DNA of 64,000 bases from Candidatus Latescibacterota bacterium (GCA_965200315.1 OZ241362.1:2560001-2624000); one strand, 5' to 3'. Shown: positions 4,042 through 62,762, numbered from the stretch's first letter. Numbers and translations are program-made. The notes: generated by a model from the letters alone, not told the origin.

Positions 4042-4048
4042 ACATCCT

Positions 4049-20375: not shown

Positions 20376-20503
20376 TGAGTGGTGAGTGGCGAGTTGCGTT
20401 TTGCAGCTAGGCCGCATCTTTTTTGCACTCGGCAAAGCAACTTGGCTCCGGCCCATTGCGCCATTATTTTTTAGGTCCCCATTCACCACAGCCCCGAGAT
20501 TTT

Positions 20504-40379: not shown

Positions 40380-40392
40380 TTCCCAATTGATT

Positions 40393-42340: not shown

Positions 42341-43978
42341 CTACGGCTCGCGCACGGTCAGCACCTGATTGGCCGCCACATCGCGCAGCGTCTGCACCGT
42401 GCCGCTGGGCCAGTGGAGGACGACGCTTTCGACGATGGCGGCGCTGCCCAAACCAAAGTGGACCTTGAGATCGCTGTGCGATAGGAAGCTGGTGCCGCTG
42501 CGCACCTCGGCGGCCTGGTGCTTACCCGCGGCACTTATTTCGATCCGGGTGCCAATTCCGTCGCGGTTGCTGCGAGTGCCTACGGTGGCGATCTGCAAGT
42601 AGTTGCCCTTGTTGCCGCCATCATTGCGCAGGAGATTGGGCGTGCTGTTGAGATTTAAGACGAAGAGGTCGATGTCGCCGTCGCGATCGTAGTCGGCAAA
42701 GCTGGTCCCTCGGCTCACCTCGACTAAGGCAAAGCCCGAACCAGCGCGTGCAGAAACCTCGGCAAAGGTGCCGTCGCCCAAGTTTTGGTAGAGGAAATTA
42801 GGCTCGGCATAGCTGCTGTTGGTATGGGGCAAGTCGGCTTGGGGATAGGTGTGGCCATTGGCCGCGAAGAGGTCTTGGTCGCCATCGTTGTCAAAGTCGA
42901 AAAACCCTGCGCCCCACCCCACCTCGGGAATGCCCTGCGCCGCAATGCGGGATATGAAGGATACGTCGAGAAAAAATCCACCGCGCTGATTTTTGTAGAG
43001 GGTATTGTACTCGCCTTCAAAGTTGGTGACAAAGATATCGAAGTAGCCATCGTTGTCGTAATCGCCAACCGCCGCGCCCATGCACCCCTGTTCGGTGCCG
43101 TCGCCGCTATAGGCCACGCCCGCGCTGAGCCCCGTGTCCACAAAGAGGCCGTCGCCTTGGTTGTGGTACAGATTGTTAGGGGCCGAGTCGTTGGCGACGA
43201 AAATATCGGGCCAGCCATCGCGGTCAAAATCGCCGAAGACGACCCCGTACCCATAGTACTTTGCACCAGCAATGCCGACTTCCTCGCTGCGGTCTGCTAG
43301 GGTGCCGTCACCCCTGTTGTGGTAGAATACATCGCCAGCCGGGAGCAAGCCGCGCGGGCCGCAAAAAATATCGACGGTCTTCCATACACAGGGGACAGTA
43401 GAATTGTATTCCCGCGAAAAGTCGATGTAATTGGCCACGTATAGATCGACATAGCCGTCTAGATCGGCATCGCCGAAAGCGCAGCCGACGCCCCATCTTG
43501 TGTCCCCAACGCCAGCTTTTTCAGTGCCATCCGCAAACGTGCCATCGCCCTGATTCTGATAGAAAGTATTGCGGCCAAAGTTGGTCACGTACAGGTCCAA
43601 ATCGCCGTCGTTGTCGTAGTCGGCAGCGGCACAACCCATGGACCAACTCGTGTCACCCACCCCGGCCGCGCCAGTGACGTCGATAAAGCGATCCCCGTGG
43701 TTGCGGTAGAGGTGGTTGGTCGGCTCTTGGCCCGGTGGAAAGCCTTCAAAGCGGGAGCCGTTGGCCACGTATAGATCGACATAGCCGTCGCTGTCGTAGT
43801 CGAAAAAGGCCGTGCCCCCCACAGCGGTTTCAACGATGTATTCCTGTGTGCGGCCCGAGACGTTCCGCGCCGTGATGCCGAGCGCGGCAGCTTGGTCGGT
43901 GAACTGAGTGGGTAGGGGTTGGGCTGACACGAGGGCCGTACACAGGAGGACGAAGCCTCCGCTAACTAGCGAGTACAT
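42341..43978 (-). CDS. CRTAC1/ASPIC-UnbV FG-GAP repeat protein
   Basis: Signal peptide VSA|Q, repeated DYDNDGD.DL, SNRDGIG...SFLSHSD..VHFGLG...WPSG. Confidence 0.92.
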   Translation of the reverse strand: MYSLVSGGFVLLCTALVSAQPLPTQFTDQAAALGITARNVSGRTQEYIVETAVGGTAFFDYDSDGYVDLYVANGSRFEGFPPGQEPTNHLYRNHGDRFIDVTGAAGVGDTSWSMGCAAADYDNDGDLDLYVTNFGRNTFYQNQGDGTFADGTEKAGVGDTRWGVGCAFGDADLDGYVDLYVANYIDFSREYNSTVPCVWKTVDIFCGPRGLLPAGDVFYHNRGDGTLADRSEEVGIAGAKYYGYGVVFGDFDRDGWPDIFVANDSAPNNLYHNQGDGLFVDTGLSAGVAYSGDGTEQGCMGAAVGDYDNDGYFDIFVTNFEGEYNTLYKNQRGGFFLDVSFISRIAAQGIPEVGWGAGFFDFDNDGDQDLFAANGHTYPQADLPHTNSSYAEPNFLYQNLGDGTFAEVSARAGSGFALVEVSRGTSFADYDRDGDIDLFVLNLNSTPNLLRNDGGNKGNYLQIATVGTRSNRDGIGTRIEISAAGKHQAAEVRSGTSFLSHSDLKVHFGLGSAAIVESVVLHWPSGTVQTLRDVAANQVLTVREP

Positions 43979-44024
43979 CGCTTTTGCTGCCAGCTCAAAT
44001 GTGAGGGCCGTGCGACCGTCATGG

Positions 44025-45731
44025 CTAGGGAGCGGGAATTTCTTGGGAAAAAAACTGGAGAGCGAAGTAGTTCAAGGACCCATCTTCTACTTCGACGGTG
44101 GGTTGTAGAGCGCCGCCTCGGTACTGGGTGAGAAAAATATAGGATCTGTACCCCCGTTCTGAAAGGCGTTGCAACAGGTGCTCGTAGTGTCTGGGGGTGG
44201 AGACGTGAAAGAAGGGCCTTTGGTAAAATTCGCCGCAGAGGGCGTGGGGAACCCAGCGCCGATTGGTGATGACGACCTCTTCGCTGCGCTGGCGCATCTC
44301 GCTATTGAGGCGATAGGAGAAGGCTTTCTTCTGCGCGAGAAGCGAAATTCCATACACTTGGGCGGCCAAGCTAATCACTAGCACAGCACCCACAGCGAGA
44401 GCGCTTACTCTGAAGTAGGGCTGCTGGCGTTCCAGCCAGTCAATCAAGTTTGCGGCCGCTAAGACCGCGAAGAGCGGGTAGAGGAGCAGAAAGTAGCGGT
44501 TGCCCCAGTGGATGCCCATGGAACCTACCTTGGGCGCGGCCAAGGCGTAGAGTGCGGCAAAGCTCAAGGCGACCAGCCAAATCCAGCGTCTAAAAGCAGA
44601 CGTTGCGGAACCAGCGGAACGCAAGAAGGCCAAGGCTACAAAGGGAGCCGAGGCAAACAGGGCATTGGACGATTTGAGCATGTAGTCGATGGGACTCGCG
44701 GAAAAAAAATAACCCCCGAGCGACAAACCGGCACTTACTAGGGCCACAGCACTGTACGCGGGCACGGCCTTTGACAAAGCCGGGGGCGCAAAGCGCGGGT
44801 TAAGTACAAAGGCAAGGACGAAGGGAAGGACGAGGACGAGGGATAGCGCGGGAATCGGGTTGGACGCGATGAAGAGGTTGTAAAACACCCGCGGCCGCGC
44901 CTCAAAATGGTGGACCCAGTCGGCGGCCGTGGCCAAGTGCGTATTCAAATGGTAACCGAAGGGATGGCCGATGGTCAGCCATTGGAAGAGCCAGAGCGGC
45001 AGGAGGGAAGCAAAGAGGATCAGGGCCGACGAGACGAGGATTTTTAACCTGCCTGCGCTGGCATAAAAGGCAGTGCATAAGGCCAGCACCAAGCAAAGCA
45101 AATAGAACTCGTCTCTGAAATAGACCGATAATCCGGCCGCGGCCATGCCCAAGCCTAGGTGCTTGGGGGCGGAGTCTGCGAGAAACTGCAACAGATAGCG
45201 CACACTCCAAACCCCCAAACAAATCGCCGGGGTGTGCTCCCAGAAAACGAGACTGTAGAAAAACACCGGCGTGCAGAGTCCGGCGGTGAGGACGGCGACA
45301 TGCCCGACCGCAATTCGCGGAGAGACCAAACTCGCCAGTTGGGCCAAGCCAGCCAACATGGCCAGCGAGGAGAGCGCCGGTAACAGATAAAGCCCCCAAT
45401 GGCCTAAGTGGGCAAAAAAAAGGGCGGAGATAAGGGCAAAGACCGGTGAGAAAACGGAATAGAGTTTGCCGGACTCGACGCGCGTGAAATAATAGGGCAG
45501 GGGATTGTAAACGAAGTCTGGATCGACGATCTGCCCCGGCCAAGGGATGGAAAAATCTGTGTAGCTACTGGTAGCTAAGGCTTGGACTTGGAGGAATTTG
45601 TTGGCGTTATCGGTAATCCAAAAGCCGCGTTTTTCGAGGATGCAGAGGGCGGCGAAATAGCAGACTGAGATGGCGAGCAGAGAGCACAGGACTGAGCGGC
45701 CGGGATGGAATCGGCGGAAGAGAACGACCAT
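44025..45731 (-). CDS. Polytopic membrane protein, GT-C glycosyltransferase-like
   Basis: N-terminal TM followed by acidic loop WITDN..K, FYS..FWEH, FRDE and WGNRY motifs; about 13 hydrophobic segments and a soluble C-terminal domain. Confidence 0.6.
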   Translation of the reverse strand: MVVLFRRFHPGRSVLCSLLAISVCYFAALCILEKRGFWITDNANKFLQVQALATSSYTDFSIPWPGQIVDPDFVYNPLPYYFTRVESGKLYSVFSPVFALISALFFAHLGHWGLYLLPALSSLAMLAGLAQLASLVSPRIAVGHVAVLTAGLCTPVFFYSLVFWEHTPAICLGVWSVRYLLQFLADSAPKHLGLGMAAAGLSVYFRDEFYLLCLVLALCTAFYASAGRLKILVSSALILFASLLPLWLFQWLTIGHPFGYHLNTHLATAADWVHHFEARPRVFYNLFIASNPIPALSLVLVLPFVLAFVLNPRFAPPALSKAVPAYSAVALVSAGLSLGGYFFSASPIDYMLKSSNALFASAPFVALAFLRSAGSATSAFRRWIWLVALSFAALYALAAPKVGSMGIHWGNRYFLLLYPLFAVLAAANLIDWLERQQPYFRVSALAVGAVLVISLAAQVYGISLLAQKKAFSYRLNSEMRQRSEEVVITNRRWVPHALCGEFYQRPFFHVSTPRHYEHLLQRLSERGYRSYIFLTQYRGGALQPTVEVEDGSLNYFALQFFSQEIPAP

Positions 45732-45760
45732 GTATGGAACGCAGAGAAGTTTGGCGATGC

Positions 45761-46789
45761 TTACGGCGAACTGGGCGACAAATTGTCGAAGACGATGAAC
45801 TGATGCTCAGCCAATCCGAGCTGCTCGGCTAGTGTATAACCAGCGCTCATCGGCAAGGAGGGGTTCAATTCCACGATCATCAGGTCTCGCTTGTCGGTGC
45901 CGATCTGGCCCAACTGGGCCAGTCCGTCCAAGCTGCTCAGGAGGGTATTGCCGCCAATGTAGAGGCTCTTACCCACTTGCCTGAGATTGTCCAATCCAGC
46001 CAAGTTTTGCAGGGCTTGGTTGCGGTTTATGCTCACAGCACCTCCGACCGCCGTCAGAGCGTTCAACCCTTCCAAGTGCTTGAGGACGGGATGCTCATCA
46101 ATGGCCAACCCACCCTTAATAGTCGCAATTCCGTTCAAACCCCGCAGGTCTCTGAGCGCGCCATTGAATATGAGCAGCAAATCCCCCTCTACCACCGAGA
46201 GACTGCCCAGCCCCTTTAGATCTCGCAGGGCCTTGTTATCCCTGATTTTGATGCTACCCCCCACGTGAGTCAGCCCGCTCAGACCATCTATGTTAATCAA
46301 CTCGGTCGTGGCATCGACGAAGAGATGGCCGTCGACGCGCCTGAGCGCTTTAAGCCCATTGAGGTCTCGCAGCGAAAAATTGCAGCTAATCTCGAAATTT
46401 CCTCCCACGCGTTCTAGCTGTTCTAGCCCTTGCAGTGCAATCAATCCATTGGAGAGAATATAGAAATTCCCTTCTACATAGCTGAGATTGTGCAGCCCTT
46501 TCAGGTCGGTCAGTGCCCCGTTATTCCGAATTGCGAAATCTCCCTCTACTCCGACCAGATTGTGCAGCGGCTCTATGCTGCTCAAGTACGCATTCTCCAA
46601 TAAAAAATCCCCCTGCACCACAAAAGCGTTCTTCTGCGCCCCCGCCCAAGCATCTAACTCCTCCTGAGACCCAATAACTATCGCCCCAGTCCCCCCAACG
46701 GCCAGCGGATCTTCAGACTCTCCCTGACAGCCGACCCAAAGGGCGACCCCCAAGACAGAGATTCCAAAACCCCATCTCCAACTAGCCAT
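45761..46789 (-). CDS. Receptor-L-domain-like repeat lipoprotein
   Basis: Lipobox WVGC; about 11 repeats of GGxLxIxxNxxLxxLxGLxxLxxV. Confidence 0.85.
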   Translation of the reverse strand: MASWRWGFGISVLGVALWVGCQGESEDPLAVGGTGAIVIGSQEELDAWAGAQKNAFVVQGDFLLENAYLSSIEPLHNLVGVEGDFAIRNNGALTDLKGLHNLSYVEGNFYILSNGLIALQGLEQLERVGGNFEISCNFSLRDLNGLKALRRVDGHLFVDATTELINIDGLSGLTHVGGSIKIRDNKALRDLKGLGSLSVVEGDLLLIFNGALRDLRGLNGIATIKGGLAIDEHPVLKHLEGLNALTAVGGAVSINRNQALQNLAGLDNLRQVGKSLYIGGNTLLSSLDGLAQLGQIGTDKRDLMIVELNPSLPMSAGYTLAEQLGLAEHQFIVFDNLSPSSP

Positions 46790-46791
46790 AC

Positions 46792-48459
46792 TCACCCGCC
46801 CTTCACGTCTTCCTTCTCTTCCTGAATTTTCAACAAGTTATCCTCGAAAACCTCAACCGAGTACTTCTCGTGTAACCCGCGCATATACTCCACGTACGCG
46901 TTTTGCGAACGTGCAATTTTCACATAAGCCCGCGCCCGCCGCTGTGAAAAAATGTGGTAGGGCTTCTTGGGGGCCGGTTGCTTCTCCGCCACCTTGAACA
47001 CCGAATACCCCCCTCTCACCTTTACCGGCCCCCCCACATCCCCCACTTGCAGATCTTTGGCTACTTTGTAGAGGTCTTGGTATAACCCGACCGGACTCAA
47101 GACCAACCGGCCCTCGTGGTGCGCCCGCTCCTTGCGAATCGTATAGTCACTAGCCAATTGCACCGCGTCGGCACCTCCCACCAACTCCGCTTTCAGACTG
47201 AGGGCCTGCTCCTTAAAGGCCACTAGAATCTCGGTCATGACAATGTTTTCAAAGCCCTGAAACTTCTCGGGATTTTGATCGTAAAAGGCTCTCGCCTCTT
47301 CATCGGTGATCGGCGGCAGCCGCTCCTCAACCTCGCGCTTGCGCAACGCGCTCACCAGCATCTCGCTGCGCTTGTTGGCCACTGCCGAGAGGATCATCTG
47401 ATGTTTATCCAGTCCCTTGCCGCGGGCTTCTTCTAGAAACATCCGATTGGGGATGGCCGAATCCTGTATATAATCGACGATCCAGTTTAGCTCGTAATCG
47501 CGCGAATAACCCTCTTCTTTCTCCGGTATGCTCAGCACGAGATCGTCAATGGTGATCGCGCCGCCGTTGTAGCGGCACAAAACCTCTTCGCCCTCTCCGG
47601 GCAACGCCATCCGCTCTGCGGGCGACAGCGCTAGACGCATCAGCACGTGGTCTAGCTTGTCGTAGTGAATTTGCGGCGCGTACTTGCCAGCGAGCGAATC
47701 GCGCAGAACTTGGGCGCGCTGTAGGCGCTTTTGGGCGAACACCTCTTCCCGGACGAACCGAGCGACCTCCCGAAAGGTGACCGGAGCGTCGTCTAAAATT
47801 TTGACGATCACGTAGCGCTGTGGATCGCCCCAAGGCAGCGGCTCGGAAATCTCGCCGCCCTGCATGGAAAAGATACGCCGGAGCGGCGGGGCCACATCGT
47901 CAATTGTATAGTACTTTTCCACGTCCCCGCCTTGGTCCCGCGTCGCCTCGTAGAGCGAGTGCTTTCTGGCCAATTGACCGAAATCAGCACCAGCCTCAAG
48001 TTCGTCGAGCAGGTCGAGGGCCTCGTCTCGGGCCGCTACCAAAATACCCGCATAGCGCAGTGCGCGATCCCGGTGCGAATCCCGGTAGTACTGCATCAGT
48101 TCCTCTTTGACAATGGAAATTCGCCGATCAATCTCGCTACTTCTGTAGAGCCTGACGGTCTGGTCCGCGGCGAACTGCTCGAGCTTGTGCTTAAACTCCC
48201 GTTCGTCGCCAATGCCAGCTCGTTCCGCTTCGGCGAGCAATAGTTTTTTGTCGATCAGTCCATTGAGCAGAATCCGGTCGGCTGCGACGCCGGTCTTACC
48301 CATCTGGTAGGCTTTGGGGATATTCGCGGCATAGGCCCTGAACTCGCTGACGGCAATGGGTTGGTCTTTTATCTGGGCGAGCACTAGATCGTCTTGGGCT
48401 ATACAGGGAAGCCAAAGCCCTAGGATGCAAGCGACTGAGCGCACTATTCCATTCTTCAT
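46792..48459 (-). CDS. Periplasmic parvulin-type PPIase/chaperone (SurA/PrsA-like, two parvulin domains)
   Basis: LIDKKLLLAEA, GADFGQLARKHS...GGD, GEISEP, GDVGGPV...GYSVFKV. Start ATG 48459, signal peptide CIA|Q. Confidence 0.85.
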   Translation of the reverse strand: MKNGIVRSVACILGLWLPCIAQDDLVLAQIKDQPIAVSEFRAYAANIPKAYQMGKTGVAADRILLNGLIDKKLLLAEAERAGIGDEREFKHKLEQFAADQTVRLYRSSEIDRRISIVKEELMQYYRDSHRDRALRYAGILVAARDEALDLLDELEAGADFGQLARKHSLYEATRDQGGDVEKYYTIDDVAPPLRRIFSMQGGEISEPLPWGDPQRYVIVKILDDAPVTFREVARFVREEVFAQKRLQRAQVLRDSLAGKYAPQIHYDKLDHVLMRLALSPAERMALPGEGEEVLCRYNGGAITIDDLVLSIPEKEEGYSRDYELNWIVDYIQDSAIPNRMFLEEARGKGLDKHQMILSAVANKRSEMLVSALRKREVEERLPPITDEEARAFYDQNPEKFQGFENIVMTEILVAFKEQALSLKAELVGGADAVQLASDYTIRKERAHHEGRLVLSPVGLYQDLYKVAKDLQVGDVGGPVKVRGGYSVFKVAEKQPAPKKPYHIFSQRRARAYVKIARSQNAYVEYMRGLHEKYSVEVFEDNLLKIQEEKEDVKGG

Positions 48460-48484
48460 AAATCTAAAACCATAGTTTGTAGGG

Positions 48485-50407
48485 TTAATAAACCAGCCGC
48501 ACGACCGCGACTTCGACATCCTTGGCCTTGTCCGAGTCCACTTCGAGACGCAAAAGATAGAGTCCGGGGGGTAGCAAGTTGCCCGCATCGTCCACGCCCT
48601 CCCAAGCAGCCGAGAACCGGCCACTAGCCGCGCTACTATGGGCCACCTCGCATCGCTTCACTCCCGCCAGATCGTAGAGATCAATCGCCACGGGCACAGC
48701 ACCGCTGAGATTTACCAGATCGTATTCAATCTGTAGCACATCGTTGACGCCATCGCCGTTGGGGGTAAAAAGCCGCGGCGAAAGCCACAATGCCTTGACC
48801 GCCGGATTGGCCACCGTACTCAAGCCGACGCTCAAGGTATTGCTCTCGGCCAGATCATCGGCGTTCCCCTCAGTGATGCGCTGGCGCACTTCATGGGGGA
48901 GTTGGCTATCGAAAACCCGGCCCGAAAACACCGTGCCCACCTGAAAGACCTCGGCCTGAAATTTGACCTCGACCAACTCGCCCGTGCGGTTGAGATCAAT
49001 CCGCGGTACTTGTACCACAAAGCTCTTCGCGTCCCTTTCCGCAATGGTAAAATCCTGTTCTTCGCCGCCGATGTACACTGCGTCAATGCTCGTGACCTCT
49101 ATGGGGGTGTTGATCTCAATGCTGTCGAAGCCGAGATCATTCTGCTCTAAGTTGGGCAGGATTTTGTAGATGAATTGGACGACCTCGCCCACCTCGACTT
49201 GGTGTGGCACGATCTCGGCTAGTACTTGGCTAGCTACCGGCGGCTGGGAGACGCTAAACTGCAAGTACTCCATGCGTCCGGCCGCAAGGGCCCGCTCCGA
49301 GAGGAAGTCCGCCTTGAACTGCAAGTAGCGCCGAGGCCGCGAACCCACCAATTCGGAATGCCCCCTATCGAAGTCGAGCGGTGGCGTCCAGAACTCCCAA
49401 TTTTCGTTGTCTGGGCTGATCCCGGCTTTCTCGCCGGCCTCCAGTCTTTTATAGCGGTCCAGAGTGAGCGGTTCGCCGCTGGTTGCAAAGCGGGAGCGCT
49501 CGTCGCCTCTGAACGTAAAGCGCCAGTAGAAATTGGGATCCGTGTCGTCGCCGCTGCGCATACTTAGATTGACCGTTGCGCCCTGATCTCGGCTGCCCGC
49601 CCAAGTCAGTTCGCCTAGGCTAGAAGCCATACCCAAATCAATGACATTGGATACATAGCTGGCCTGCGAGGCAAAGCCATCGCCGAAAATTTCAAATTCG
49701 GCGATCTCCCAATTGCCAACGGGTGCCTTAAAAAGAATTTCGGCAATGGGCCGGTCGGGCAGTTCCAACTCGAGAAAGGGCTCCAAATTATTGGCAACCG
49801 AGAACACGACATCGTAATCGAGAAAAGCCCCGCGCCAATGGTATTGCCCTTCTCGAGTTCCCTTTTTGCGCGAATCGCCGTCGTTGGTTCCTATCTCGAA
49901 TACCTCGATGAAGCGCTGGTGGGCAAAGCGCTCCGTGGTAGAAATTTTGATGCGCCGGATGGGAAACAGTCCGTTCAGCTCAAACCAGATGCCCTTCTTG
50001 CACGGCGAGCAGTCGGCCGACTGGCTGCGGCCACTTCCCAAATAAGCAGTGGTCAGATCCCCGTCCATCAAGAAGTCTAAGAGGGCTTCCGATTGCCAAC
50101 CGTAGGAATTGTTCGAGCGTATGCCCCCGCCCCGTTCCCGAATCAGCGGCGTCAGATTGACGCCAGGGTCTAAGCGCTGAGGCTCAATAGAACGAGTTGC
50201 GACCTCCAAGAGGTCTATCCTACCGAGCTGTTTTTCATCCACGTCAGCCCAAGACAACTGGATAAATTCAAATTCCCCATCCACTTCCGGCGGCGGCAAT
50301 TCCTCGCCGCCAATGCGATACACGGTGAGCGCCTCAACCGCAGCCAACCCATAGCAAAAGCTCCCTACTAGAGCAACCGCCAAAAGTCGCAGTAAATTCC
50401 CACTCAT
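48485..50407 (-). CDS. Secreted multidomain protein with FlgD/gliding-motility-type CTD (FTPNGDGVND), paralog A
   Basis: Signal peptide, discoidin-like segment (FELNGLFPIRRI...WEIAEFEIFGDG), YVSNVIDLG, RRYLQF, PRLFTPNGDGVND...YDLAG...WEG.D..G..LPPGLY. Confidence 0.8.
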   Translation of the reverse strand: MSGNLLRLLAVALVGSFCYGLAAVEALTVYRIGGEELPPPEVDGEFEFIQLSWADVDEKQLGRIDLLEVATRSIEPQRLDPGVNLTPLIRERGGGIRSNNSYGWQSEALLDFLMDGDLTTAYLGSGRSQSADCSPCKKGIWFELNGLFPIRRIKISTTERFAHQRFIEVFEIGTNDGDSRKKGTREGQYHWRGAFLDYDVVFSVANNLEPFLELELPDRPIAEILFKAPVGNWEIAEFEIFGDGFASQASYVSNVIDLGMASSLGELTWAGSRDQGATVNLSMRSGDDTDPNFYWRFTFRGDERSRFATSGEPLTLDRYKRLEAGEKAGISPDNENWEFWTPPLDFDRGHSELVGSRPRRYLQFKADFLSERALAAGRMEYLQFSVSQPPVASQVLAEIVPHQVEVGEVVQFIYKILPNLEQNDLGFDSIEINTPIEVTSIDAVYIGGEEQDFTIAERDAKSFVVQVPRIDLNRTGELVEVKFQAEVFQVGTVFSGRVFDSQLPHEVRQRITEGNADDLAESNTLSVGLSTVANPAVKALWLSPRLFTPNGDGVNDVLQIEYDLVNLSGAVPVAIDLYDLAGVKRCEVAHSSAASGRFSAAWEGVDDAGNLLPPGLYLLRLEVDSDKAKDVEVAVVRLVY

Positions 50408-50448
50408 TATCTACTTCCTACACCGCCGGTAAATGATCCAGATAGTAA

Positions 50449-50488
50449 ATAAAAGAAGGGGAGGAATAGAATTCCCCCCCTTCTTTAT
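50449..50488 (-). terminator. Intrinsic terminator after the TWGQIK gene
   Basis: Minus strand aaagaagggggggaat-tct-attcctccccttcttt followed by tattt. Confidence 0.8.
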
Positions 50489-50515
50489 GAGGCGCTTATA
50501 CGGCGCAAAAACCGC

Positions 50516-51436: not shown

Positions 51437-51524
51437 GGCGAACCTCCTTCTTAGAGGTGTGAGGTTTTGGTTTTGCAGAACGATGCTCTAATTAATAAAA
51501 ACAGCCTATAAGGTCAAGCAAAAA

Positions 51525-54431: not shown

Positions 54432-54433
54432 CC

Positions 54434-57241: not shown

Positions 57242-57280
57242 GGTAAAAATTCATCGCGAGGGGTTTCCCCTCGCCCGGTA

Positions 57281-59566
57281 TCAATACGCGACCCCAACAA
57301 CCCCCACCCGCTTCTCTTCTCCGGTCCCCGCATCCAAAGCAACGGAAAAGATATAGTGGCCTGGGGGGACCGCGTTGTCCTCATCGTCGCGCCCGTCCCA
57401 AAAACGGGGAAATCGCCCGCTCATATCCAAGCCTTCGTAGAGGTTGCGGACCAACCGGCCACTCAAATCGTAGACCCCGAGCCGCACCCGGGTGGGGTGG
57501 GCTATGTTGGTGATGTCATAGGTAATGGCCGCCCGCTCGTTGACCCCGTCGCCATTGGGGGTAAAAACCCCGGGCACGGCCGCTACATTTACTAGCAGTT
57601 CGTCGGTAATCGGCACCCCGACAAAGAGGTTTTCTGGATCGAGGGTGCCCACGACTTTGCGGTCGGGATCATCCATGCCCTCCCGACTCAAATCCGCGGC
57701 ATTACCGGCCAACACCACTTGACCTAGCACCTCGTTGTCGGCATGGAGCGCCCGGCCGGCAAAGCGAGTTCCTAGGCGTAGGACTGTATTCTCGAACTCT
57801 AAAGTCAAAAGGGCTCCATCCTCCGCAATCCGCGGGAAGGCCATGACCAAGGCGTCGTCGCGCACAGCTACCACGCTAAAGCCACTCTGCTCGACCGGAA
57901 GCGCCGCGAGGGACACGCCGGAAAAATCCGCCGATGCTGCCGTGCCGTCGGGCCGGCGTATTCCCACTTGGCCAATTGACTCAGTGCGCAGCGGTGTGCT
58001 GATTTCAAAGCGATCAAAGCCCGCATTCTGAGGAGAGGATTTGACCAAGACGCCATACGTGAAGCGGGTGGCTTGGCCCAAGATGGCGGTGCGAGGCAAA
58101 ATCTCGGCGATGAGGGAGTCGGCGAAGACGGGCTGGAAAACGTCCCAAGCCACTCCGCCGATGCCAGTAGCCGCATCGACATCGGCGTTGAAGAATTCGA
58201 TCATAACTTGAAAATAGCGCCGCGGGCTAGGCGATACGATCAGCGTCCCCGCTCCTTGCACTTGAAGTTGGTCTGGGGCGACAATACCCTCGGGCGAATA
58301 GGGGGGGGACCAAGGACTCCAATTGGTGAGGTCTTCGCGAATCACCGACTTTTGGTCGCTCGCTAATTTGTTGTAGTCCGCTTGGCCAAGGGTGATCTGG
58401 GCTCGCTGTTCAAAAGGCAACTGGCCAAAGGTCAAAAGCGCCTCGCGCCCGTCCATCTCTTCGTTGTCGAGGATGTTGGCGACCAAGTTCTCGAGTTCGC
58501 TGTCTTCTACATCTTCGGCTCTCTTCCAAGGCGCGTCGATGGGGATGTCGAAAACGGTATCTCCCCGCTGTTCAACTCGGCCAGAGGATTGCTTGCCGAC
58601 GCGGGTAAACTCGACCGGCTGGGAATCGTCCCCACTGCGGGTGCGGACCTGGACCCTAGAGCGAGTTGGATCGCCCACCTGCTCTTCAACCCAGCGCAAA
58701 CGGCCCAAAAGTGCTTGGTCGCCAAAGTCGAATACATTGGAAATGTACACGGCCTGCGGCACAAAACCCTCGCTGAACACTTGAAACTCGGCGATCTCAA
58801 AGTCTGCGGCCGTCAGGGACTTGAGCCGCAAAAAGCGCACGAAGCGGGTGGGAATTCGCACGTCCACCACCGCTTCTTGGTTCTGCCCTTCAAAGGCGAC
58901 CGTTTCCCAGATTAGACTGCCCTCGCGGCGCGATTCGGGTTGGCCGTCATTGACGAAAATTTCGTAGCCCTTCAAAAAGTCGTCTTGAGACTGGAAATCC
59001 GGGGCTGGAAAGGCCGGATCGGCGTTGCGCGGAAAAAACTTGAACCGATTGACGCCAAAGATAGCCCCCAAGTCGAATTCGATGAGTAAGCCAAAAGCTC
59101 CGGTCCCCCCCGTGCCCGATGATCGCACCGCTAAGGCGGTATTTCCGTCGTCGTCGAACATCTGGGGAAAATCGGCTTCGAGAAAGCGGAAAGAGGGGAT
59201 GGGCGTGATGACGCTGCCACCGCGCTCCTTGGAGTTGACGCCGATCAATATGTTGTCCGTCGTATCGGCCTGCTGCGGAAAGATCCAATACGTGCGCTCA
59301 AAGGGAGCAAAGTCGATGACGCCGCCGGGCGCATTGGATTGATCGACCGTCGCCGGGTCGAGGATCACTAGGGCCGGAACCTCCCCGCCGCCACTCTCCC
59401 AAGACAACCCGCCCTCGCCCCCTAGTTGGACGACCTCCATTTGGGCACCAACTGGCGACTGGGCACTCAACGCTCCGAGAGCAGAAAAGAGCATAAGTAC
59501 CCTAAGCGCGATCCATCGGCACCTGTAATCCCTTTGATCTGCCGCGGATGATGACATGGCTGGCAT
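57281..59566 (-). CDS. Secreted multidomain protein with FlgD/gliding-motility-type CTD (FTPNGDGVNE), paralog B
   Basis: Discoidin-like FDLGAIFGVNRFKFFPR...FEIAEFQVFSEG, YISNVFDFG, WSPWSPPY, RRYFQ, PGVFTPNGDGVN...YDLSGRLVR...WDGRD..VPPGHY. Confidence 0.8.
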   Translation of the reverse strand: MPAMSSSAADQRDYRCRWIALRVLMLFSALGALSAQSPVGAQMEVVQLGGEGGLSWESGGGEVPALVILDPATVDQSNAPGGVIDFAPFERTYWIFPQQADTTDNILIGVNSKERGGSVITPIPSFRFLEADFPQMFDDDGNTALAVRSSGTGGTGAFGLLIEFDLGAIFGVNRFKFFPRNADPAFPAPDFQSQDDFLKGYEIFVNDGQPESRREGSLIWETVAFEGQNQEAVVDVRIPTRFVRFLRLKSLTAADFEIAEFQVFSEGFVPQAVYISNVFDFGDQALLGRLRWVEEQVGDPTRSRVQVRTRSGDDSQPVEFTRVGKQSSGRVEQRGDTVFDIPIDAPWKRAEDVEDSELENLVANILDNEEMDGREALLTFGQLPFEQRAQITLGQADYNKLASDQKSVIREDLTNWSPWSPPYSPEGIVAPDQLQVQGAGTLIVSPSPRRYFQVMIEFFNADVDAATGIGGVAWDVFQPVFADSLIAEILPRTAILGQATRFTYGVLVKSSPQNAGFDRFEISTPLRTESIGQVGIRRPDGTAASADFSGVSLAALPVEQSGFSVVAVRDDALVMAFPRIAEDGALLTLEFENTVLRLGTRFAGRALHADNEVLGQVVLAGNAADLSREGMDDPDRKVVGTLDPENLFVGVPITDELLVNVAAVPGVFTPNGDGVNERAAITYDITNIAHPTRVRLGVYDLSGRLVRNLYEGLDMSGRFPRFWDGRDDEDNAVPPGHYIFSVALDAGTGEEKRVGVVGVAY

Positions 59567-59655
59567 ATCTTTTGACTCGGCTTCTCTGGGCTAAGGCAAC
59601 TAACTGTATGAAATACGAAAAGACACAGCAACCAAAATCCGGCAACGTATAGCAG

Positions 59656-61002
59656 CTAAGGTTGGTTGGCTTCAATTTGAATCTCGCCCGTAAACCCATT
59701 GGCGATCAAACGCTCCGCTAGGGCCTTAGCTGCACTACTAGGCAAGTTTCTATTGGCCCTAATGCCCAGCCGACCACCTACTTTTTCTAGCCTTGCCAAG
59801 CCCGCTACACTCTGCAATTTCTCGTTAAATTGGATGAATAAATGTCCTTCAATAGTCCTAAGTTCGCCGAGCCCAGCCGCGTTGACCAAGGCACTGTTGC
59901 CGAAGATGGATACGTTCCCCCGGATCCTGCTTAGGCGGTGCAGCCCTTCCAAACTGCGCAGCGCTCCATTATCGACGATCAGCAAATCCCCGCCGACGTA
60001 AGCCAAGCGTCGTAGGCCCGCCAAACTTTGCAGCGTGCTGTTGTCGATGAGCAAGAGAAGTCCTTCAATGCGGGCCAAGCGGGCCAAGCCTTCGAGACTG
60101 GGCAGGACGCTATTGGCCTGAATCAACAAATCACCCCCAATGCGCTGGCACCCGGCCAAGCCCGCCAAAGATACCAGCGCATCGTTTTTCTCGACTCTCA
60201 GGCTACCCCCGATCCAACTCAGCTTATCCAAGCCCGCCAAGCACTCCAAGCGGTTGTTGCCAATTACCAACACATTTCCAGCGACGCGCTCAAGCTGCTC
60301 TAGGCCCGCTAGGTCGACCAAGGCCCCATTGCTCTTGATTCGCAAAAAACCGCCCACATCCTCCAGCCGCCGCAGTCCCCCTAGCGCCTGCAACGACCGA
60401 TTGCGCTCGATGGCCAACCCGCCCATTAGGCGTTTGATCCCCCCTAGGCCTACCAGACTCTTTAGCGATCCATTGCCGACGACGAGGACCTGTCCCGCTA
60501 TGGTCTCCAGTCGCTCCAGCCCCTCAATATGGGCGAGGCGGCGATTGAATTGAACCCTGAGCGACCCACCCACGCGATTAATTCGACGCAACCCCTTCAG
60601 ATCAACCAAGGCATTGTTGCGCTCGATGATTAAGCTACCTCCTAATTCCTCCAGAGACCGCAATCCCGCCAAATCCGCGAGTTGGGGGTTGCGCCGAATT
60701 CGCAAACTGCCCCCAATCCTCTTTAGGTGGTGCAGGCCCGCCAAACTTTTCAACGAATCGCTATGCTCAATGCTCAGATCGCCTCCTACATACTCGAGCC
60801 GCTCCAACCCGTGCAGCATCTTCAGTTGGTCGCTCTGCACGAGCAAATGCCCTTCGACAGACCGGCCTGTCAAAGCGCGTAGGTCGGCTGCCGAATCGAC
60901 GACAAACCCTTCTGTTGATTTGTTCGGCTCAACCGCTTTTATCGCGCTAACACTCCAACACAATACCCCAATCAGCGGTACGAGCAGGGCTTTGCGATTC
61001 AT
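59656..61002 (-). CDS. Secreted receptor-L-domain-like repeat protein
   Basis: Signal peptide plus about 16 regular 24-aa repeats GGxLxIxxNxxLxxLxGLxxLxxI. Confidence 0.85.
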   Translation of the reverse strand: MNRKALLVPLIGVLCWSVSAIKAVEPNKSTEGFVVDSAADLRALTGRSVEGHLLVQSDQLKMLHGLERLEYVGGDLSIEHSDSLKSLAGLHHLKRIGGSLRIRRNPQLADLAGLRSLEELGGSLIIERNNALVDLKGLRRINRVGGSLRVQFNRRLAHIEGLERLETIAGQVLVVGNGSLKSLVGLGGIKRLMGGLAIERNRSLQALGGLRRLEDVGGFLRIKSNGALVDLAGLEQLERVAGNVLVIGNNRLECLAGLDKLSWIGGSLRVEKNDALVSLAGLAGCQRIGGDLLIQANSVLPSLEGLARLARIEGLLLLIDNSTLQSLAGLRRLAYVGGDLLIVDNGALRSLEGLHRLSRIRGNVSIFGNSALVNAAGLGELRTIEGHLFIQFNEKLQSVAGLARLEKVGGRLGIRANRNLPSSAAKALAERLIANGFTGEIQIEANQP

Positions 61003-61054
61003 TTTGTGTCCCCGGAATAAAGTTTCCCCGGTCAACGCGGTAGGGAACTCAGAG

Positions 61055-62674
61055 TCAGCGAGTAGGTTGGACTATGCGTACAATCTGATTGGCGTCAACA
61101 GCGTCCAACGTCTGGACTTGGCCGTCGGGCCAGCGAATCGCGATATCCGCCTTCGTCGCCCGACCAAGGCCAAAGTGGAGGCGGGGATCGTGGCCGGATA
61201 GATAGCTCCCCCCGGACTGGCGCTCCCGGACCTGACGCACACCGCCCGCGATAACAGTAACGCGGGTCCCTAGCGCATCCCGCTGACCAGTACCGACCAA
61301 GAGGAGTTCGACCCAGTGCTGGCGATTGCCCCCGTCGTTGCGCAACAGACGAGGCCGCCCGGCCACGGTAGTCGCCAGTAGCTCCAGATCGCCGTCGTTG
61401 TCCCAATCGGCCACAGCCGCGCCGCGAACCGCGCTCTCAACGACAAAGTCGGCACCCAACTGGTCGGAGACTTCTTCAAAGTGGGCACCGTCTTGGTTGC
61501 GCAGCATAAGGTCGGGCTGGGCGTAGCGGAGGTCGGCGTCGAGTTGCTCGATATTATCCACCACGTGCCCGTTGCCGACAAATAAATCGAGGTCGCCGTC
61601 ATTGTCGTAGTCCATAAATTTGGTCCCGAACCCCAAGGGCAGATACGTGAGGGCCCCCAAGCCGAAGTGGGCGGTAAAATCGGCAAAGCGCCCCCGGCCA
61701 TCATTCCAGTAGAGGGTGTTGGTCTCGCGCGAGTAATTGGTTACGAAAAGATCGGCGTACCCATCGTTGTCGAAATCGCCGAAGTCAACGCCCATACCGG
61801 CTTCGGCGTGCCCATCTTCGTTGTATTGCACCCCGGCTTGTAGGCCGATCTCGACAAAGCGCGTCTCTTGGTTTTCGTAGAGAAAATTCGGCGTACCATC
61901 GTTGGCCACGTAAATATCCGTATCGCCGTCCAAGTCGCTGTCTGCAAAGGCCACGCCCAGCCCTCGTCCCACCGCACGGATGCCCACCCTCTTGGTCACA
62001 TCGACAAAGCGCCTGCCATCGTTGCGATAGAGCACATCCCCGATGGGTGCGTAGGTGCTTGGCTCGCAGTAAAAGCGAATCGTCCCCCGCTTGCACTCGA
62101 TATTGCCCGGCAAGCTGAAATGCACATAATTGGCCACAAAGAGGTCCAGGTCCCCATCGTTGTCGAAATCCAAAAATCCGCTGCTGGTGCCCCAGCGCCC
62201 GTCGCCCACGCCGGCTATTTGGGTAACGTCTGCAAAGCGCCCGCCGCCGTTATTGCTCAACAGCACATTGGGACCGAAGTTGGTTGCGTAGAGATCTTGA
62301 TCCCCATCGTTGTCGAAATCGCCCGCCGCACATCCCATGCCGTAGCCCCGATCGCCAGTTCCAGACGCGACAGAGAGATCGGCGAAAGTCCCATCGCCAG
62401 CGTTGCGATAAAGGCGATTGATGGGCGAAGTCGGGGGCAGGGCCCCCGAAAGATGGGCACCGTTAATCAGGTATATGTCCTGCCAGCCGTCCCCATCGGC
62501 GTCAAAGAATGCTGCGCCTGCGCCAAAGGTCTCGACATAGTAGTATTCGCCTTGAGCACCGTTGTAGTGTTGGAAGTCAATTCCGGCTTCTTGGGCGACT
62601 TCCCGGTAGCGCACTTGCGCCTGTGCAGCGACGACACAAGCGCACAAGATGGACAATAGTGAGTATCTTCTCAT
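61055..62674 (-). CDS. CRTAC1/ASPIC-UnbV FG-GAP repeat protein
   Basis: Signal peptide AQA|Q, repeated DFDNDGD.DL, GGSYLSGHDPRLHFGLG...WPDG. Confidence 0.92.
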   Translation of the reverse strand: MRRYSLLSILCACVVAAQAQVRYREVAQEAGIDFQHYNGAQGEYYYVETFGAGAAFFDADGDGWQDIYLINGAHLSGALPPTSPINRLYRNAGDGTFADLSVASGTGDRGYGMGCAAGDFDNDGDQDLYATNFGPNVLLSNNGGGRFADVTQIAGVGDGRWGTSSGFLDFDNDGDLDLFVANYVHFSLPGNIECKRGTIRFYCEPSTYAPIGDVLYRNDGRRFVDVTKRVGIRAVGRGLGVAFADSDLDGDTDIYVANDGTPNFLYENQETRFVEIGLQAGVQYNEDGHAEAGMGVDFGDFDNDGYADLFVTNYSRETNTLYWNDGRGRFADFTAHFGLGALTYLPLGFGTKFMDYDNDGDLDLFVGNGHVVDNIEQLDADLRYAQPDLMLRNQDGAHFEEVSDQLGADFVVESAVRGAAVADWDNDGDLELLATTVAGRPRLLRNDGGNRQHWVELLLVGTGQRDALGTRVTVIAGGVRQVRERQSGGSYLSGHDPRLHFGLGRATKADIAIRWPDGQVQTLDAVDANQIVRIVQPTR

Positions 62675-62762
62675 ATACTAGACAGACGGCTCGGTTACTT
62701 TGACCGGCAATCTAACCACAAACCGGAACACTCGTGCAAATGCACCTAAAAACGGGCAGTCA

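What the first reader, a model, noticed from the sequence alone, without database searches (positions are those of the whole stretch)
42341..62674. 20-kb co-oriented envelope cluster that looks like an uncharacterised surface-protein export/assembly system
Seen: 11 consecutive minus-strand genes, nearly all exported. Transcription order is CRTAC1 > L-repeat > FTPNGDG-CTD protein > large paralog B > large paralog A > TWGQIK protein > FTPNGDG-CTD protein > PPIase > L-repeat lipoprotein > GT-C-like > CRTAC1, with a divergent TPR lipoprotein. The order is roughly mirror-symmetric around the two large paralogs, which are 2 bp apart. Known: in Bacteroidota, proteins with type B (FTPNGDG) CTDs need an adjacent PorP/SprF barrel for T9SS delivery. 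Inference: the large paralogs act as dedicated outer-membrane partners, the PPIase as chaperone, the GT-C protein as modifying or anchoring enzyme, and the rest as cargo. I recognise no described system with this gene set.
Basis: partly seen in the sequence, partly recalled or inferred. Interest (0 to 1): 0.82.

Follow-up and report, generated by a model that had tools for sequence, protein, structure and literature searches.

The report
Paired giant outer-membrane barrels with lectin-like partners
The 20-kb cluster is real, but only its middle is a conserved unit: two huge outer-membrane barrel proteins with sugar-binding-type exported partners and a folding helper, a module that an uncultured bacterial phylum keeps in several copies per genome and that no family library searched here describes.

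Summary
There are 11 co-oriented minus-strand genes in the stated order, four paralog pairs, and the two large genes lie 2 nt apart.

In 80 related Latescibacterota loci, which collapse to 23 groups at 75% identity, the conserved set is narrower:
- a discoidin + Ig-like-CTD protein (T), in 22/23 groups
- barrel B (23/23) next to barrel A
- a 306-aa protein (s), in 20/23 groups
- a double-parvulin PPIase, in 15/23 groups

The L-repeat and GT-C-like genes occur only in the window's own orthologs (1/23 each). CRTAC1-like genes occur in 11/23 groups.

A models as a giant beta-barrel. Its Foldseek hits are all large outer-membrane barrels, with SlpA first, but TM-scores are only 0.12-0.25. A and B are an ancient pair: they split at SH-aLRT 100. 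s has a CBM9/DOMON fold. Genomes carry at least 2-4 such loci.

My best reading, at about 0.4, is a heteromeric barrel platform that displays lectin-like proteins. It is analogous to PorP/SprF with type-B cargo but is not a member of that family. T9SS dependence was not tested. I found no description in print or in Pfam/NCBIfam.

The parts
57281..59566 (-). T1: exported 761-aa protein with a discoidin-like N-terminal region and an Ig-like C-terminal domain (FlgD_ig/CHU_C) that carries FTPNGDG and ends in VAY. Core part.
   Evidence: Pfam CHU_C 32.5 bits and FlgD_ig 30.8 bits, cut-offs 27. Atlas nearest cluster scores 0.94, with F5_F8_type_C in 70% of its members. T lies directly upstream of B in 53/80 loci and the T family is present in 22/23 groups.
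57256..57274 (-). GC-rich 8-bp hairpin between T1 and barrel B. It may attenuate transcription (inferred).
   Evidence: -16.4 kcal/mol, z -3.45, 0 of 200 shuffles fold as well.
54434..57241 (-). Barrel B: 935-aa signal-peptide protein, paralog of A. Core part.
   Evidence: 40% identical to A over the full length. No Pfam or NCBIfam family. Present in 23/23 groups. The B clade separates from the A clade at SH-aLRT 100.
51525..54431 (-). Barrel A: 968-aa giant outer-membrane beta-barrel with a conserved N-terminal ~115 aa and a conserved acidic D/N-rich loop region (about residues 549-654). Core part.
   Evidence: AF2 pLDDT 65.8, pTM 0.62, with long antiparallel strands from residue ~139 to 967. 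All 31 Foldseek PDB hits at E<=1e-3 are large OM barrels. 820 homologs, every source name seen reading 'hypothetical'. 962 clusters at 50% identity.
50516..51436 (-). s: exported 306-aa CBM9/DOMON-fold protein. It has an invariant His at the predicted mature N-terminus and a C-terminal SWGxIKASF tail. Core part.
   Evidence: AF2 pLDDT 78, pTM 0.78. Foldseek to CBM9 1i82_A: E 4.6e-8, TMt 0.70. Alignment A2. Present in 20/23 groups. The tail motif is in 46/48 family ORFs.
50452..50486 (-). 16-bp hairpin with a U-rich tail between s and T2. Likely an intrinsic terminator or attenuator that splits the cluster into two units.
   Evidence: -24.6 kcal/mol, z -5.14, 0 of 200 shuffles. The exact 23-mer is kept in 5 of 80 loci, all close orthologs.
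48485..50407 (-). T2: exported 640-aa paralog of T1 with the same C-terminal domain, ending in LVY. Core part.
   Evidence: 27% identity to T1, E 9e-53. CHU_C 29.0 bits, cut-off 27. Loci hold 2-4 T genes in 64/80 cases.
46792..48459 (-). Periplasmic double-parvulin PPIase of the SurA/PrsA/PpiD type. Frequent companion of the core.
   Evidence: Rotamase_2 70.6 bits and Rotamase 56.7 bits. All NCBIfam equivalogs are below cut-off. Start at 48459 gives MKNGIV..., matching ortholog lengths of 546-584 aa. Present in 15/23 groups and 58/80 loci.
62700..63998 (+). Divergent TPR protein, cut by the window end. Occasional companion.
   Evidence: Many TPR families. TPR genes lie near the core in 9/23 groups.
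61055..62674 (-). CRTAC1-like FG-GAP/ASPIC protein. Accessory or loosely associated.
   Evidence: FG-GAP_3 155.7 bits and UnbV_ASPIC 80.5 bits. Present in 11/23 groups, in varying position and strand.
59656..61035 (-). Receptor-L-domain / LRR-like repeat protein. Accessory.
   Evidence: Recep_L_domain 87.2 bits. Present in 1/23 groups, and missing or degenerate even in the close orthologs L009, L010, L012 and L014.
45761..46795 (-). Receptor-L-domain repeat protein with a lipobox-like VGC. Accessory.
   Evidence: Recep_L_domain 47.2 bits. Present in 1/23 groups.
44025..45731 (-). Polytopic GT-C-like membrane protein (near the LA_3751/LA_3752 family). Accessory in this locus type.
   Evidence: NCBIfam 186.6 bits, E 7.3e-55, cut-off 200. 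About 10 TM-like segments. Present in 1/23 groups.
42341..43978 (-). Second CRTAC1-like FG-GAP/ASPIC protein. Accessory.
   Evidence: FG-GAP_3 191.2 bits and UnbV_ASPIC 77.6 bits. 45% identical to the first copy.

Best explanation
The cluster is a composite. Its conserved core is T1 > B > A > s > T2 plus a SurA-like PPIase, with a TPR gene and a third T class nearby. This core is one copy of a module that Latescibacterota genomes keep in several diverged copies.

B and A are Sec-exported proteins that fold into giant outer-membrane beta-barrels, roughly 26-30 strands, in the SlpA/LptD size class. They arose by an ancient duplication, are nearly always adjacent and often translationally coupled, and therefore most likely work as a hetero-oligomer.

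The T proteins (discoidin-type lectin domain plus an Ig-like C-terminal domain ending in an aromatic residue) and s (CBM9/DOMON fold) are exported partners.

Proposed mechanism:
- The parvulin chaperone escorts the very large barrels (and perhaps the T proteins) through the periplasm.
- The barrel pair sits in the outer membrane and holds the T and s proteins at the cell surface through their C-terminal domain or tail.
- This resembles how PorP/SprF barrels hold type-B-CTD proteins in Bacteroidota, and it yields a glycan-binding surface complex for adhesion or substrate capture.

Shown: gene content, paralogy, conserved synteny, fold classes.
Inferred: heteromer formation, surface display, CTD-barrel docking, glycan binding.

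The CRTAC1-like, L-repeat and GT-C-like genes are neighbours specific to this locus type, not parts of the machine.
For: **Synteny**
- Of 666 tblastn-confirmed relatives, the best 80 loci were kept. They form 23 groups at 75% identity of A.
- T is present in 22/23 groups, B in 23/23, s in 20/23 and the PPIase in 15/23.
- B and A are within 200 nt of each other in 51/80 loci, with gaps mostly -4 to +8 nt. In 15 more loci only the PPIase gene separates them.

**The barrel pair**
- A and B fall on two sides of one branch (SH-aLRT 100) with parallel sub-trees across locus types.
- In the AF2 model of A, residues ~139-967 are long beta hairpins.
- All 31 Foldseek hits at E<=1e-3 are large OM barrels: SlpA, LptD, MtrB, ushers, SprA and TonB-dependent transporters.
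- A sister branch gives reproducible local SlpA_C similarity: 25/25 and 9/31 proteins, at 15-33.5 bits.

**The partners**
- 41/43 dereplicated T proteins carry FlgD_ig and/or CHU_C at the C-terminus, and 17/43 carry F5_F8_type_C.
- 172/174 full-length T proteins end in x-x-Y.
- s matches the CBM9 fold with TMt 0.70.

**Copy number**
- The 80 loci include 2-4 loci from the same chromosome or MAG, for example OX638377.1 with L006, L020, L064 and L074.

**Precedent**
- Type-B CTD proteins bind PorP-like barrels for surface anchorage (PMC9143113, abstract; PMC12618676, abstract and section 10).
Against: - No experiment and no interaction evidence exists for any pair.
- The barrel model is of moderate confidence only (pLDDT 65.8). 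TM-scores to known barrels are 0.12-0.25, so only the fold class is supported. Barrel B was not modelled.
- The two most conserved regions of A (residues 17-137 and 549-654) are unmodelled, so key functional parts are unknown.
- Neither A nor B matches any Pfam or NCBIfam family, even at E<=10 for Pfam. A profile of the family did not retrieve SlpA from PDB sequences.
- The CTD aligns equally well with ordinary FlgD_ig/Por_Secre_tail CTDs of unrelated proteins in the window. It may be a general sorting signal rather than a barrel-docking domain.
- Carbohydrate binding is inferred from folds only. s has no sequence match to CBM9.
- The PPIase is absent from 8/23 groups within 10 kb.
- The A/B labels in the tree were assigned by best BLAST hit to the window proteins, which is partly circular.
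Confidence: 0.4

Rival explanations
1. Uptake channel. B and A are giant, TonB-independent diffusion pores. The T and s lectin-like proteins capture glycans and feed them to the pore. This would be a functional analogue of SusC/SusD loci, multiplied per genome for different substrates.
For: - The best structural neighbours include porin-like giant barrels (SlpA) and SusC-type or TonB-dependent transporters.
- There are two different carbohydrate-binding-type folds, discoidin and CBM9.
- Genomes carry several diverged loci. In a sister branch, 15 of the 120 listed representatives share the same longest-contig length of 5,870,491, which suggests at least 15 paralogs in one genome (inferred from length only).
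- Sulfatase, FGE-sulfatase, enolase-superfamily and amidohydrolase genes flank some locus types. The window also holds a heparinase, a sulfatase and sugar-acid enzymes.
Against: - There is no TonB-dependent plug, SusD or transporter family match in the cluster.
- No glycoside hydrolase lies inside the core.
- The catabolic neighbours vary between locus types and are common in these genomes, so the association may be chance.
- The pore lumen and any plug could not be assessed, because the N-terminal 120 aa are unmodelled.
Confidence: 0.2
2. All 11 genes form one dedicated export/assembly system. The barrels are the translocon or partner for type-B-CTD cargo, the PPIase is the chaperone, the GT-C protein is the modifying or anchoring enzyme, and the CRTAC1-like and L-repeat proteins are cargo.
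For: - The genes are co-oriented with short intergenic gaps.
- The whole 11-gene order is kept in close orthologs, for example L002, L006 and L008.
- A PMT_2 (GT-C) + TPR fusion gene lies near the core in another locus type. This hints at a recurrent link with GT-C enzymes.
- CRTAC1-like genes are near the core in 11/23 groups.
Against: - The L-repeat and GT-C-like genes are in 1/23 groups each.
- The upstream CRTAC1/L-repeat pair is missing or degenerate even in orthologs with 88-92% identical barrels: L009, L010, L012 and L014.
- CRTAC1-like and L-repeat proteins carry no CTD.
- A terminator-like hairpin splits the cluster.
- The window's GT-C-like protein is not similar to the membrane+TPR protein of type II loci.
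Confidence: 0.12
3. Envelope-structural role. B/A are SlpA-like abundant barrels that organise or tether the outer membrane, and the T proteins form a surface coat attached to them.
For: - SlpA structures are the top Foldseek hits: 7zgx_A, 8agd_A and 8ae1_A.
- Relatives give repeated local SlpA_C hits.
- SlpA is described as an OM-cell wall connector that may hold the S-layer substoichiometrically (PMC9388160, passages).
Against: - There is no SLH domain and no long coiled coil in A or B.
- Several diverged copies per genome, each with its own lectin-like partners, is unusual for a housekeeping tether.
- The SlpA_C hits are below cut-off and cover only about 100 of 656 profile positions.
Confidence: 0.1
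4. Chance neighbourhood. Unrelated genes for exported proteins happen to lie together.
For: The outer genes (CRTAC1-like, L-repeat, GT-C-like) behave in this way.
Against: The core order T-B-A(-s-T) recurs across 23 groups whose barrels are down to about 43% identical.
Confidence: 0.03

Closest known systems
PorP/SprF barrels with type-B-CTD cargo (Bacteroidota T9SS; PMC9143113 abstract; PMC12618676 abstract and section 10)
   Same: - The cargo gene lies directly upstream of a dedicated outer-membrane barrel gene.
- The cargo ends in a roughly 90-aa Ig-like domain with the FTPNGDG-type motif that passes Pfam CHU_C.
- Other CTD proteins of the 'ordinary' kind exist elsewhere in the same window.
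   Different: - The barrels are 935-968 aa, paired and of a different family, with no PorP/SprF match.
- NCBIfam TIGR04131 is below cut-off.
- The organism belongs to another phylum.
- T9SS core genes were not examined.
- The five motifs A-E could not be compared, because they are defined only in a figure.
SlpA giant outer-membrane barrel of Deinococcus-Thermus (PF21620 SlpA_C; PDB 7zgx, 8ae1; PMC9388160 passages)
   Same: - SlpA gives the best Foldseek hits.
- The strand-count class is similar (SlpA has 30 strands).
- There are insertions and probable metal-binding acidic loops.
- A sister branch of the family gives reproducible local SlpA_C similarity.
   Different: - No SLH domain or coiled-coil stalk.
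- Hetero-paralog pairs instead of homotrimers (the pairing itself is inferred).
- A and B give no SlpA_C hit at all.
- TM-scores are only 0.18-0.23.
SusC/SusD-type polysaccharide utilisation loci
   Same: - An outer-membrane barrel with surface carbohydrate-binding-type partners.
- Many diverged loci per genome.
   Different: - No TonB-dependent receptor, plug or SusD family.
- Two barrels per locus.
- The partners carry Ig-like CTDs rather than clear lipoprotein signals.
CBM9 / DOMON-fold proteins (PDB 1i82, 7nwn; NxrC 7b04_C; EbdC 2ivf_C)
   Same: The fold of the 306-aa protein s.
   Different: - No sequence-level match.
- s is about 100 aa larger.
- s is a stand-alone exported protein with an invariant N-terminal His and a conserved C-terminal tail.

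Membership tests
T9SS type-B CTD cargo | C-terminal domain matching the curated type-B models above cut-off | tested here: inconclusive
   Pfam CHU_C passes: 32.5 and 29.0 bits against a cut-off of 27. NCBIfam TIGR04131 fails: 21.6 bits against 35 for the 761-aa protein, and no hit for the 640-aa protein. FlgD_ig fits about as well. The PDB profile search finds FlgD at 2.2e-7 and the PorU CTD only at 0.19.
T9SS type-B CTD cargo | Cognate PorP/SprF-family barrel encoded next to the cargo | tested here: not met
   None of the 14 proteins of the cluster and its flanks matches a PorP/SprF family at E<=0.01.
T9SS type-B CTD cargo | Organism encodes the T9SS core (SprA/Sov, PorV, PorK/L/M/N) | not testable with these tools
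   None is present among the window proteins scanned.
T9SS type-B CTD cargo | Five conserved motifs A-E in the last 100 residues (PMC12618676) | not tested
   The motifs are defined only in a figure. The text read (section 10) does not spell them out.
PorP/SprF outer-membrane shuttle | Sequence match to the family | tested here: not met
   A and B are 968 and 935 aa and match no Pfam or NCBIfam family.
SlpA-like barrel (PF21620 SlpA_C) | Pfam match above the gathering score | tested here: not met
   No hit for A or B even at E<=10. Relatives score 15.2-33.5 bits against a cut-off of 35, over profile positions about 177-330 only.
SlpA-like barrel (PF21620 SlpA_C) | N-terminal SLH domain and long coiled-coil stalk | tested here: not met
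   No SLH family hit. The AF2 model has no long helix after the signal peptide.
SlpA-like barrel (PF21620 SlpA_C) | Roughly 30-stranded outer-membrane barrel | tested here: inconclusive
   The DSSP strand list suggests roughly 26-30 long strands.
SusC/SusD polysaccharide utilisation locus | TonB-dependent receptor with plug, plus SusD-like lipoprotein | tested here: not met
   No such family among the cluster proteins.
Chaperone-usher pathway | Usher family barrel and PapD-like chaperone | tested here: not met
   Ushers appear only as weak fold-class hits with TM 0.16-0.19. There is no Pfam usher or PapD match.
CBM9 | CBM9 fold and sequence family | tested here: inconclusive
   The fold is met: 1i82_A at E 4.6e-8 and TMt 0.70. 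The sequence family is not met: 0 Pfam families at E<=10 and no PDB profile hit.
SurA/PrsA/PpiD parvulin chaperones | Parvulin PPIase domains, and equivalog-level match | tested here: inconclusive
   Rotamase_2 at 70.6 bits and Rotamase at 56.7 bits pass. All NCBIfam equivalogs are far below cut-off, for example 78.7 against 303.
LA_3751/LA_3752 putative glycosyltransferase (GT-C-like) | NCBIfam NF047440 above cut-off | tested here: not met
   186.6 bits against a cut-off of 200, E 7.3e-55, covering 5-458 of 460 profile positions. This makes it a close relative just under the curated line.
CRTAC1/ASPIC-like FG-GAP proteins | FG-GAP_3 repeats plus a UnbV_ASPIC C-terminal domain | tested here: met
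   Both end genes pass both models.

The most novel reading that the evidence does not exclude
The T-B-A-s module may be a previously undescribed, CTD-dependent outer-membrane secretion-and-display apparatus of Latescibacterota. In this reading, a heteromeric pair of giant barrels itself translocates and then holds its lectin-like cargo, replacing both the SprA translocon and the PorP/SprF shuttle. As a bolder addition, the s subunit may be a metal-binding enzyme rather than a passive binding module: its mature N-terminal His is invariant in 20/20 sequences and there is a second invariant His, an arrangement reminiscent of a histidine brace (that comparison is recalled, not tested).
Probability: 0.12. 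Interest if true: 0.85.

Novelty: new variant of a known kind. Interest (0 to 1): 0.6.

Why it matters
Latescibacterota are uncultured and abundant in sediments, waters and animal-associated communities, and almost nothing is known about their cell surface.

This module consists of three protein families without any Pfam or NCBIfam model: the barrels, s, and most of T. The barrel family spans 962 clusters at 50% identity. The module is kept in several diverged copies per genome, which usually marks a major interface with the environment, such as substrate capture, adhesion or host contact.

It also extends the principle of a dedicated barrel next to a CTD protein beyond Bacteroidota, to barrels of a different and much larger type. 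It links those barrels distantly to the SlpA class.

If the barrels prove to be translocons or uptake pores, it would be a new outer-membrane transport route.

Tried and rejected
- **Complex prediction** (barrel B residues 141-935 with the T1 CTD residues 655-761). The verdict was 'no answer' (score 0.00, mark 0.32, controls not run). This is not evidence either way. A full B+A pair, or a barrel plus s, exceeds the 1000-residue limit and was not tried.
- **Sequence-profile searches of the barrel family against PDB chains** (A1; A4 with distant members). Nothing meaningful was found and SlpA was not retrieved.
- **s profile against PDB sequences**. No hit.
- **Pfam at E<=10** for A, B, s and the GT-C-like protein. 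Nothing useful.
- **Atlas search of A**. Only unnamed Latescibacterota/Gemmatimonadota clusters appeared. The nearest named cluster (DUF6029, 0.89) is a lead only.
- **A shared GT-C theme across locus types.** The window's GT-C-like protein is not similar to the membrane+TPR protein of type II loci. That protein shares only its TPR part with the PMT_2+TPR protein of type V loci.
- **L010 as evidence that the PPIase/L-repeat/GT-C/CRTAC1 block is dispensable.** Rejected: a restriction-modification/Fic island is inserted after T2 there, so the block may lie further on.
- **Literature.**
  - 'Latescibacteria' + 'type IX secretion': 0 papers.
  - 'T9SS' + 'Latescibacter': 0 papers.
  - 'FlgD Ig-like' + 'T9SS': 0 papers.
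  - ASPIC/UnbV/SusD/polysaccharide utilization, at least 3 of 4 terms: 0 papers.
  - A sponge Latescibacterota genome paper (PMC12993501, passages) holds none of 'secretion system', 'outer membrane', 'FG-GAP' or 'discoidin'.
- **The listing of cluster members** for the taxonomy of the distant branch was unavailable.

Full report
**1. The observation**

The region 42341-62674 holds eleven consecutive minus-strand ORFs of 306-968 aa with short gaps.
- CRTAC1-like FG-GAP_3 + UnbV_ASPIC proteins at both ends.
- Two Receptor-L-domain repeat proteins.
- Two proteins whose C-termini pass Pfam CHU_C (32.5 and 29.0 bits, cut-off 27) and match FlgD_ig.
- A protein with two parvulin domains.
- A polytopic protein just under the cut-off of the LA_3751/LA_3752 putative glycosyltransferase family (186.6 bits against 200).
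- Three proteins (935, 968 and 306 aa) with no family.

The four paralog pairs are real, and the 935- and 968-aa genes are 2 nt apart. The FTPNGDG motif occurs only in the two CTD proteins, and TWGQIK lies at the end of the 306-aa protein. A crude hydropathy scan finds an N-terminal hydrophobic segment in ten of the eleven proteins and about ten TM-like segments in the GT-C-like protein. No signal-peptide predictor was available. The PPIase ORF probably starts at 48459, which fits ortholog lengths.

**2. What is conserved**

The 968-aa protein (A) has 820 homologs in the 5.8-billion-protein set. None has a Pfam domain. Every name given by a source reads 'hypothetical protein', and the organisms named are Latescibacteria or Gemmatimonadetes MAGs.

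Of these, 666 were confirmed, and the best 80 were fetched with up to 10 kb on each side. I compared all window proteins with the ORFs of these loci and dereplicated the loci into 23 groups by 75% identity of A.

| Family | Groups (of 23) | Loci (of 80) |
|---|---|---|
| CTD protein family (T) | 22 | 78 |
| Barrel B | 23 | 79 |
| 306-aa protein (s) | 20 | 52 |
| PPIase | 15 | 58 |
| CRTAC1-like | 11 | 32 |
| TPR | 9 | 35 |
| DUF6785 | 6 | 21 |
| MFS-spermine synthase | 4 | 4 |
| L-repeat | 1 | 11 |
| GT-C-like | 1 | 11 |

Many loci are cut by contig ends, so these are lower bounds.

B and A are within 200 nt in 51 loci, with gaps mostly -4 to +8 nt. In 15 further loci only the PPIase gene separates them. 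T lies directly upstream of B in 53 loci, and most loci hold 2-4 T genes.

There are three T classes: about 750 aa upstream of B, about 640 aa, and about 840-940 aa. In window-type loci the largest class lies beyond the TPR gene (L009, L010 and L014), which here would be outside the window.

Even among orthologs whose barrels are 88-92% identical to the window's, the upstream CRTAC1/L-repeat pair is missing or degenerate (L009, L010, L012 and L014). So the mirror symmetry is a property of this locus variant, not of the system.

The same chromosomes contribute 2-4 different loci to the 80, for example OX638377.1 and OZ242214.1 with four each.

**3. The parts**

*Barrels*
- An AF2 model of A (39-row alignment) has pLDDT 65.8 and pTM 0.62. 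From residue ~139 to 967 it consists of long antiparallel strands, roughly 26-30 of them.
- All 31 Foldseek PDB hits at E<=1e-3 are large outer-membrane barrels: SlpA first, then LptD, MtrB, FimD/PapC, SprA and TonB-dependent transporters. TM-scores are only 0.12-0.25, so only the fold class is supported.
- Two very conserved stretches stay unmodelled: residues 17-137, and an acidic D/N-rich region at 549-654 whose loops look like calcium-binding motifs by eye.
- An exhaustive HMM search finds 962 clusters at 50% identity with E<=1e-3, and 322 with E<=1e-30.
- Distant full-length members give local, sub-threshold matches to Pfam SlpA_C: 9 of 31 proteins and 25 of 25 in one branch, at 15.2-33.5 bits against a cut-off of 35, always over profile positions about 177-330 of 656. 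About half of that branch carries the family in the collection's precomputed annotation.
- A and B themselves give no such hit, and profiles did not retrieve SlpA from PDB sequences.
- A quick maximum-likelihood tree of 47 barrels puts all 21 A-type and all 26 B-type proteins on two sides of one branch (SH-aLRT 100), with parallel sub-trees. The careful search did not finish, and the labels came from best BLAST hits. The duplication therefore predates the radiation of locus types, which, with the tight coupling, argues for a hetero-oligomer.

*T proteins*
- Of 44 dereplicated representatives of the T family, 43 were scanned; I left one out, a 1329-aa ORF from L050. Of the 43, 41 carry FlgD_ig and/or CHU_C at the C-terminus.
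- 17 of the 43, all of the large class, carry F5_F8_type_C.
- The nearest atlas cluster for the body of the 761-aa protein carries F5_F8_type_C in 70% of its members.
- 172 of 174 full-length T proteins end in x-x-Y.
- The T CTDs align with the CTDs of three unrelated window proteins: two FlgD_ig proteins and a heparinase with Por_Secre_tail. They differ by the FTPNGDG insertion and by the terminal Y.

*s*
- AF2 gives pLDDT 78 and pTM 0.78.
- Foldseek matches CBM9 modules (E 4.6e-8, TMt 0.70), then DOMON-type subunits NxrC and EbdC.
- All 20 aligned members have His as the first residue after the predicted signal-peptide cleavage site, an invariant DADHSGG, and a C-terminal SWGxIKASF tail. The tail is in 46 of 48 family ORFs.
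- The s family has 232 homologs, none with a Pfam domain, and every name given by a source reads 'hypothetical protein'.

**4. Transcription**

A 16-bp hairpin with a U-rich tail lies between s and the 640-aa gene (-24.6 kcal/mol, z -5.1). An 8-bp GC hairpin lies between the 761-aa gene and B. The total count of terminator-like sites is no higher than in shuffles (25 against 24.1), so only these two stand out. The cluster is probably at least two units.

**5. Mechanism**

The best-supported reading is a modular outer-membrane complex. A hetero-oligomer of two giant barrels, helped by a dedicated parvulin chaperone, holds lectin-like proteins (discoidin-type T, CBM9-type s) at the surface. The arrangement of a CTD protein gene directly upstream of its barrel gene parallels type-B CTD cargo and PorP/SprF barrels in Bacteroidota (PMC9143113, abstract; PMC12618676, abstract and section 10).

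Membership in that system is not supported:
- There is no PorP/SprF match.
- TIGR04131 is below cut-off.
- T9SS core genes were not examined.

A review names several FCB phyla that may have a T9SS, and Latescibacterota is not among them (PMC11285876, passages). The window does hold ordinary CTD proteins and a glutaminyl cyclase, so some CTD-dependent route is plausible.

The evidence does not separate the first rival from my reading well.

**6. Novelty**

None of my four specific literature searches found a description. Neither Pfam nor NCBIfam has a model for the barrels or for s. The kind (a barrel with surface partners) is known, but the families and the paired-giant-barrel architecture are not.

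**7. Left open**
- T9SS genes in the genome.
- The taxonomy and context of the distant branch (unavailable).
- The metagenome and viral collections, which were closed.
- Supplements of the cited papers, which were not consulted.
- Any direct interaction evidence.

Noticed in passing
window 50516-51436 (-), alignment A2: All 20 aligned members of the 306-aa family have His as the first residue after the predicted signal-peptide cleavage site (..A|H.P). They also have a second invariant His in DADHSGG. A mature N-terminal His is the hallmark of histidine-brace copper proteins (recalled), and the fold found here is CBM9/DOMON.
   Followed up: partly
window 17477-18505 (+), motif at 18452-18469: An unrelated 342-aa protein with no Pfam family shares only the near-C-terminal (V/A)(I/V)ED-x-SWG-x-IK motif with the 306-aa protein. 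This suggests a portable C-terminal tag in this organism.
   Followed up: partly
window 1492-4071 (-), 4651-5748 (+), 20423-22276 (+), 22317-23963 (+): Outside the cluster the window holds a heparinase II/III with a Por_Secre_tail CTD, a glutaminyl cyclase, and two further proteins with FlgD_ig-type CTDs. The organism therefore has 'ordinary' CTD proteins as well.
   Followed up: partly
window 35313-37427 (+), 24845-26776 (+), 40315-42336 (+): There is a third CRTAC1-like FG-GAP/ASPIC gene and two DUF6785+DUF6784 membrane-protein genes in the same 64 kb. These families are abundant here, which weakens any argument from their adjacency.
   Followed up: no
L041:13010-14755 (+) and equivalents in type II loci: Between A and s lies a 581-aa protein with a polytopic, His-rich N-terminal membrane part (no Pfam family) and C-terminal TPRs.
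   Followed up: partly
L075:19737-21551 (+) and equivalents in type V loci: A PMT_2 (GT-C) + TPR fusion protein, an FGE-sulfatase gene and two DUF6785 genes lie next to the T-T-T-B-A core.
   Followed up: no
L016, L017, L025, L038, L062: These loci have three barrel genes (B-T-B-A). The extra B forms its own subclade in the tree.
   Followed up: partly
proteins (for example P0301 and P0311 through P0386): In a sister branch of the barrel family, 15 of the 120 listed representatives share the same longest-contig length of 5,870,491. This suggests one genome with at least 15 paralogs. The taxonomy is unknown.
   Followed up: no
L010:15915-22469: A restriction-modification (ResIII/HSDR, N6_Mtase+Methylase_S) and Fic island is inserted directly after the T2 gene in a close ortholog of the window locus.
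   Followed up: yes
L003, L005, L021-L023, L062, L069, L080 (titles): Loci nearly identical to Latescibacterota loci carry record titles of Gemmatimonadota, Planctomycetota, Rhizobiaceae or Gemmatimonas phototrophica. These probably reflect labelling or binning differences between MAG records.
   Followed up: no
window 9179-10942 (+) and 11007-12569 (+): Two tandem AAA-ATPase_like + PDDEXK_9 genes.
   Followed up: no
window 37702-40224 (+): An MFS + spermine/spermidine synthase fusion protein. Relatives lie within 10 kb of the core in 4/23 groups.
   Followed up: no
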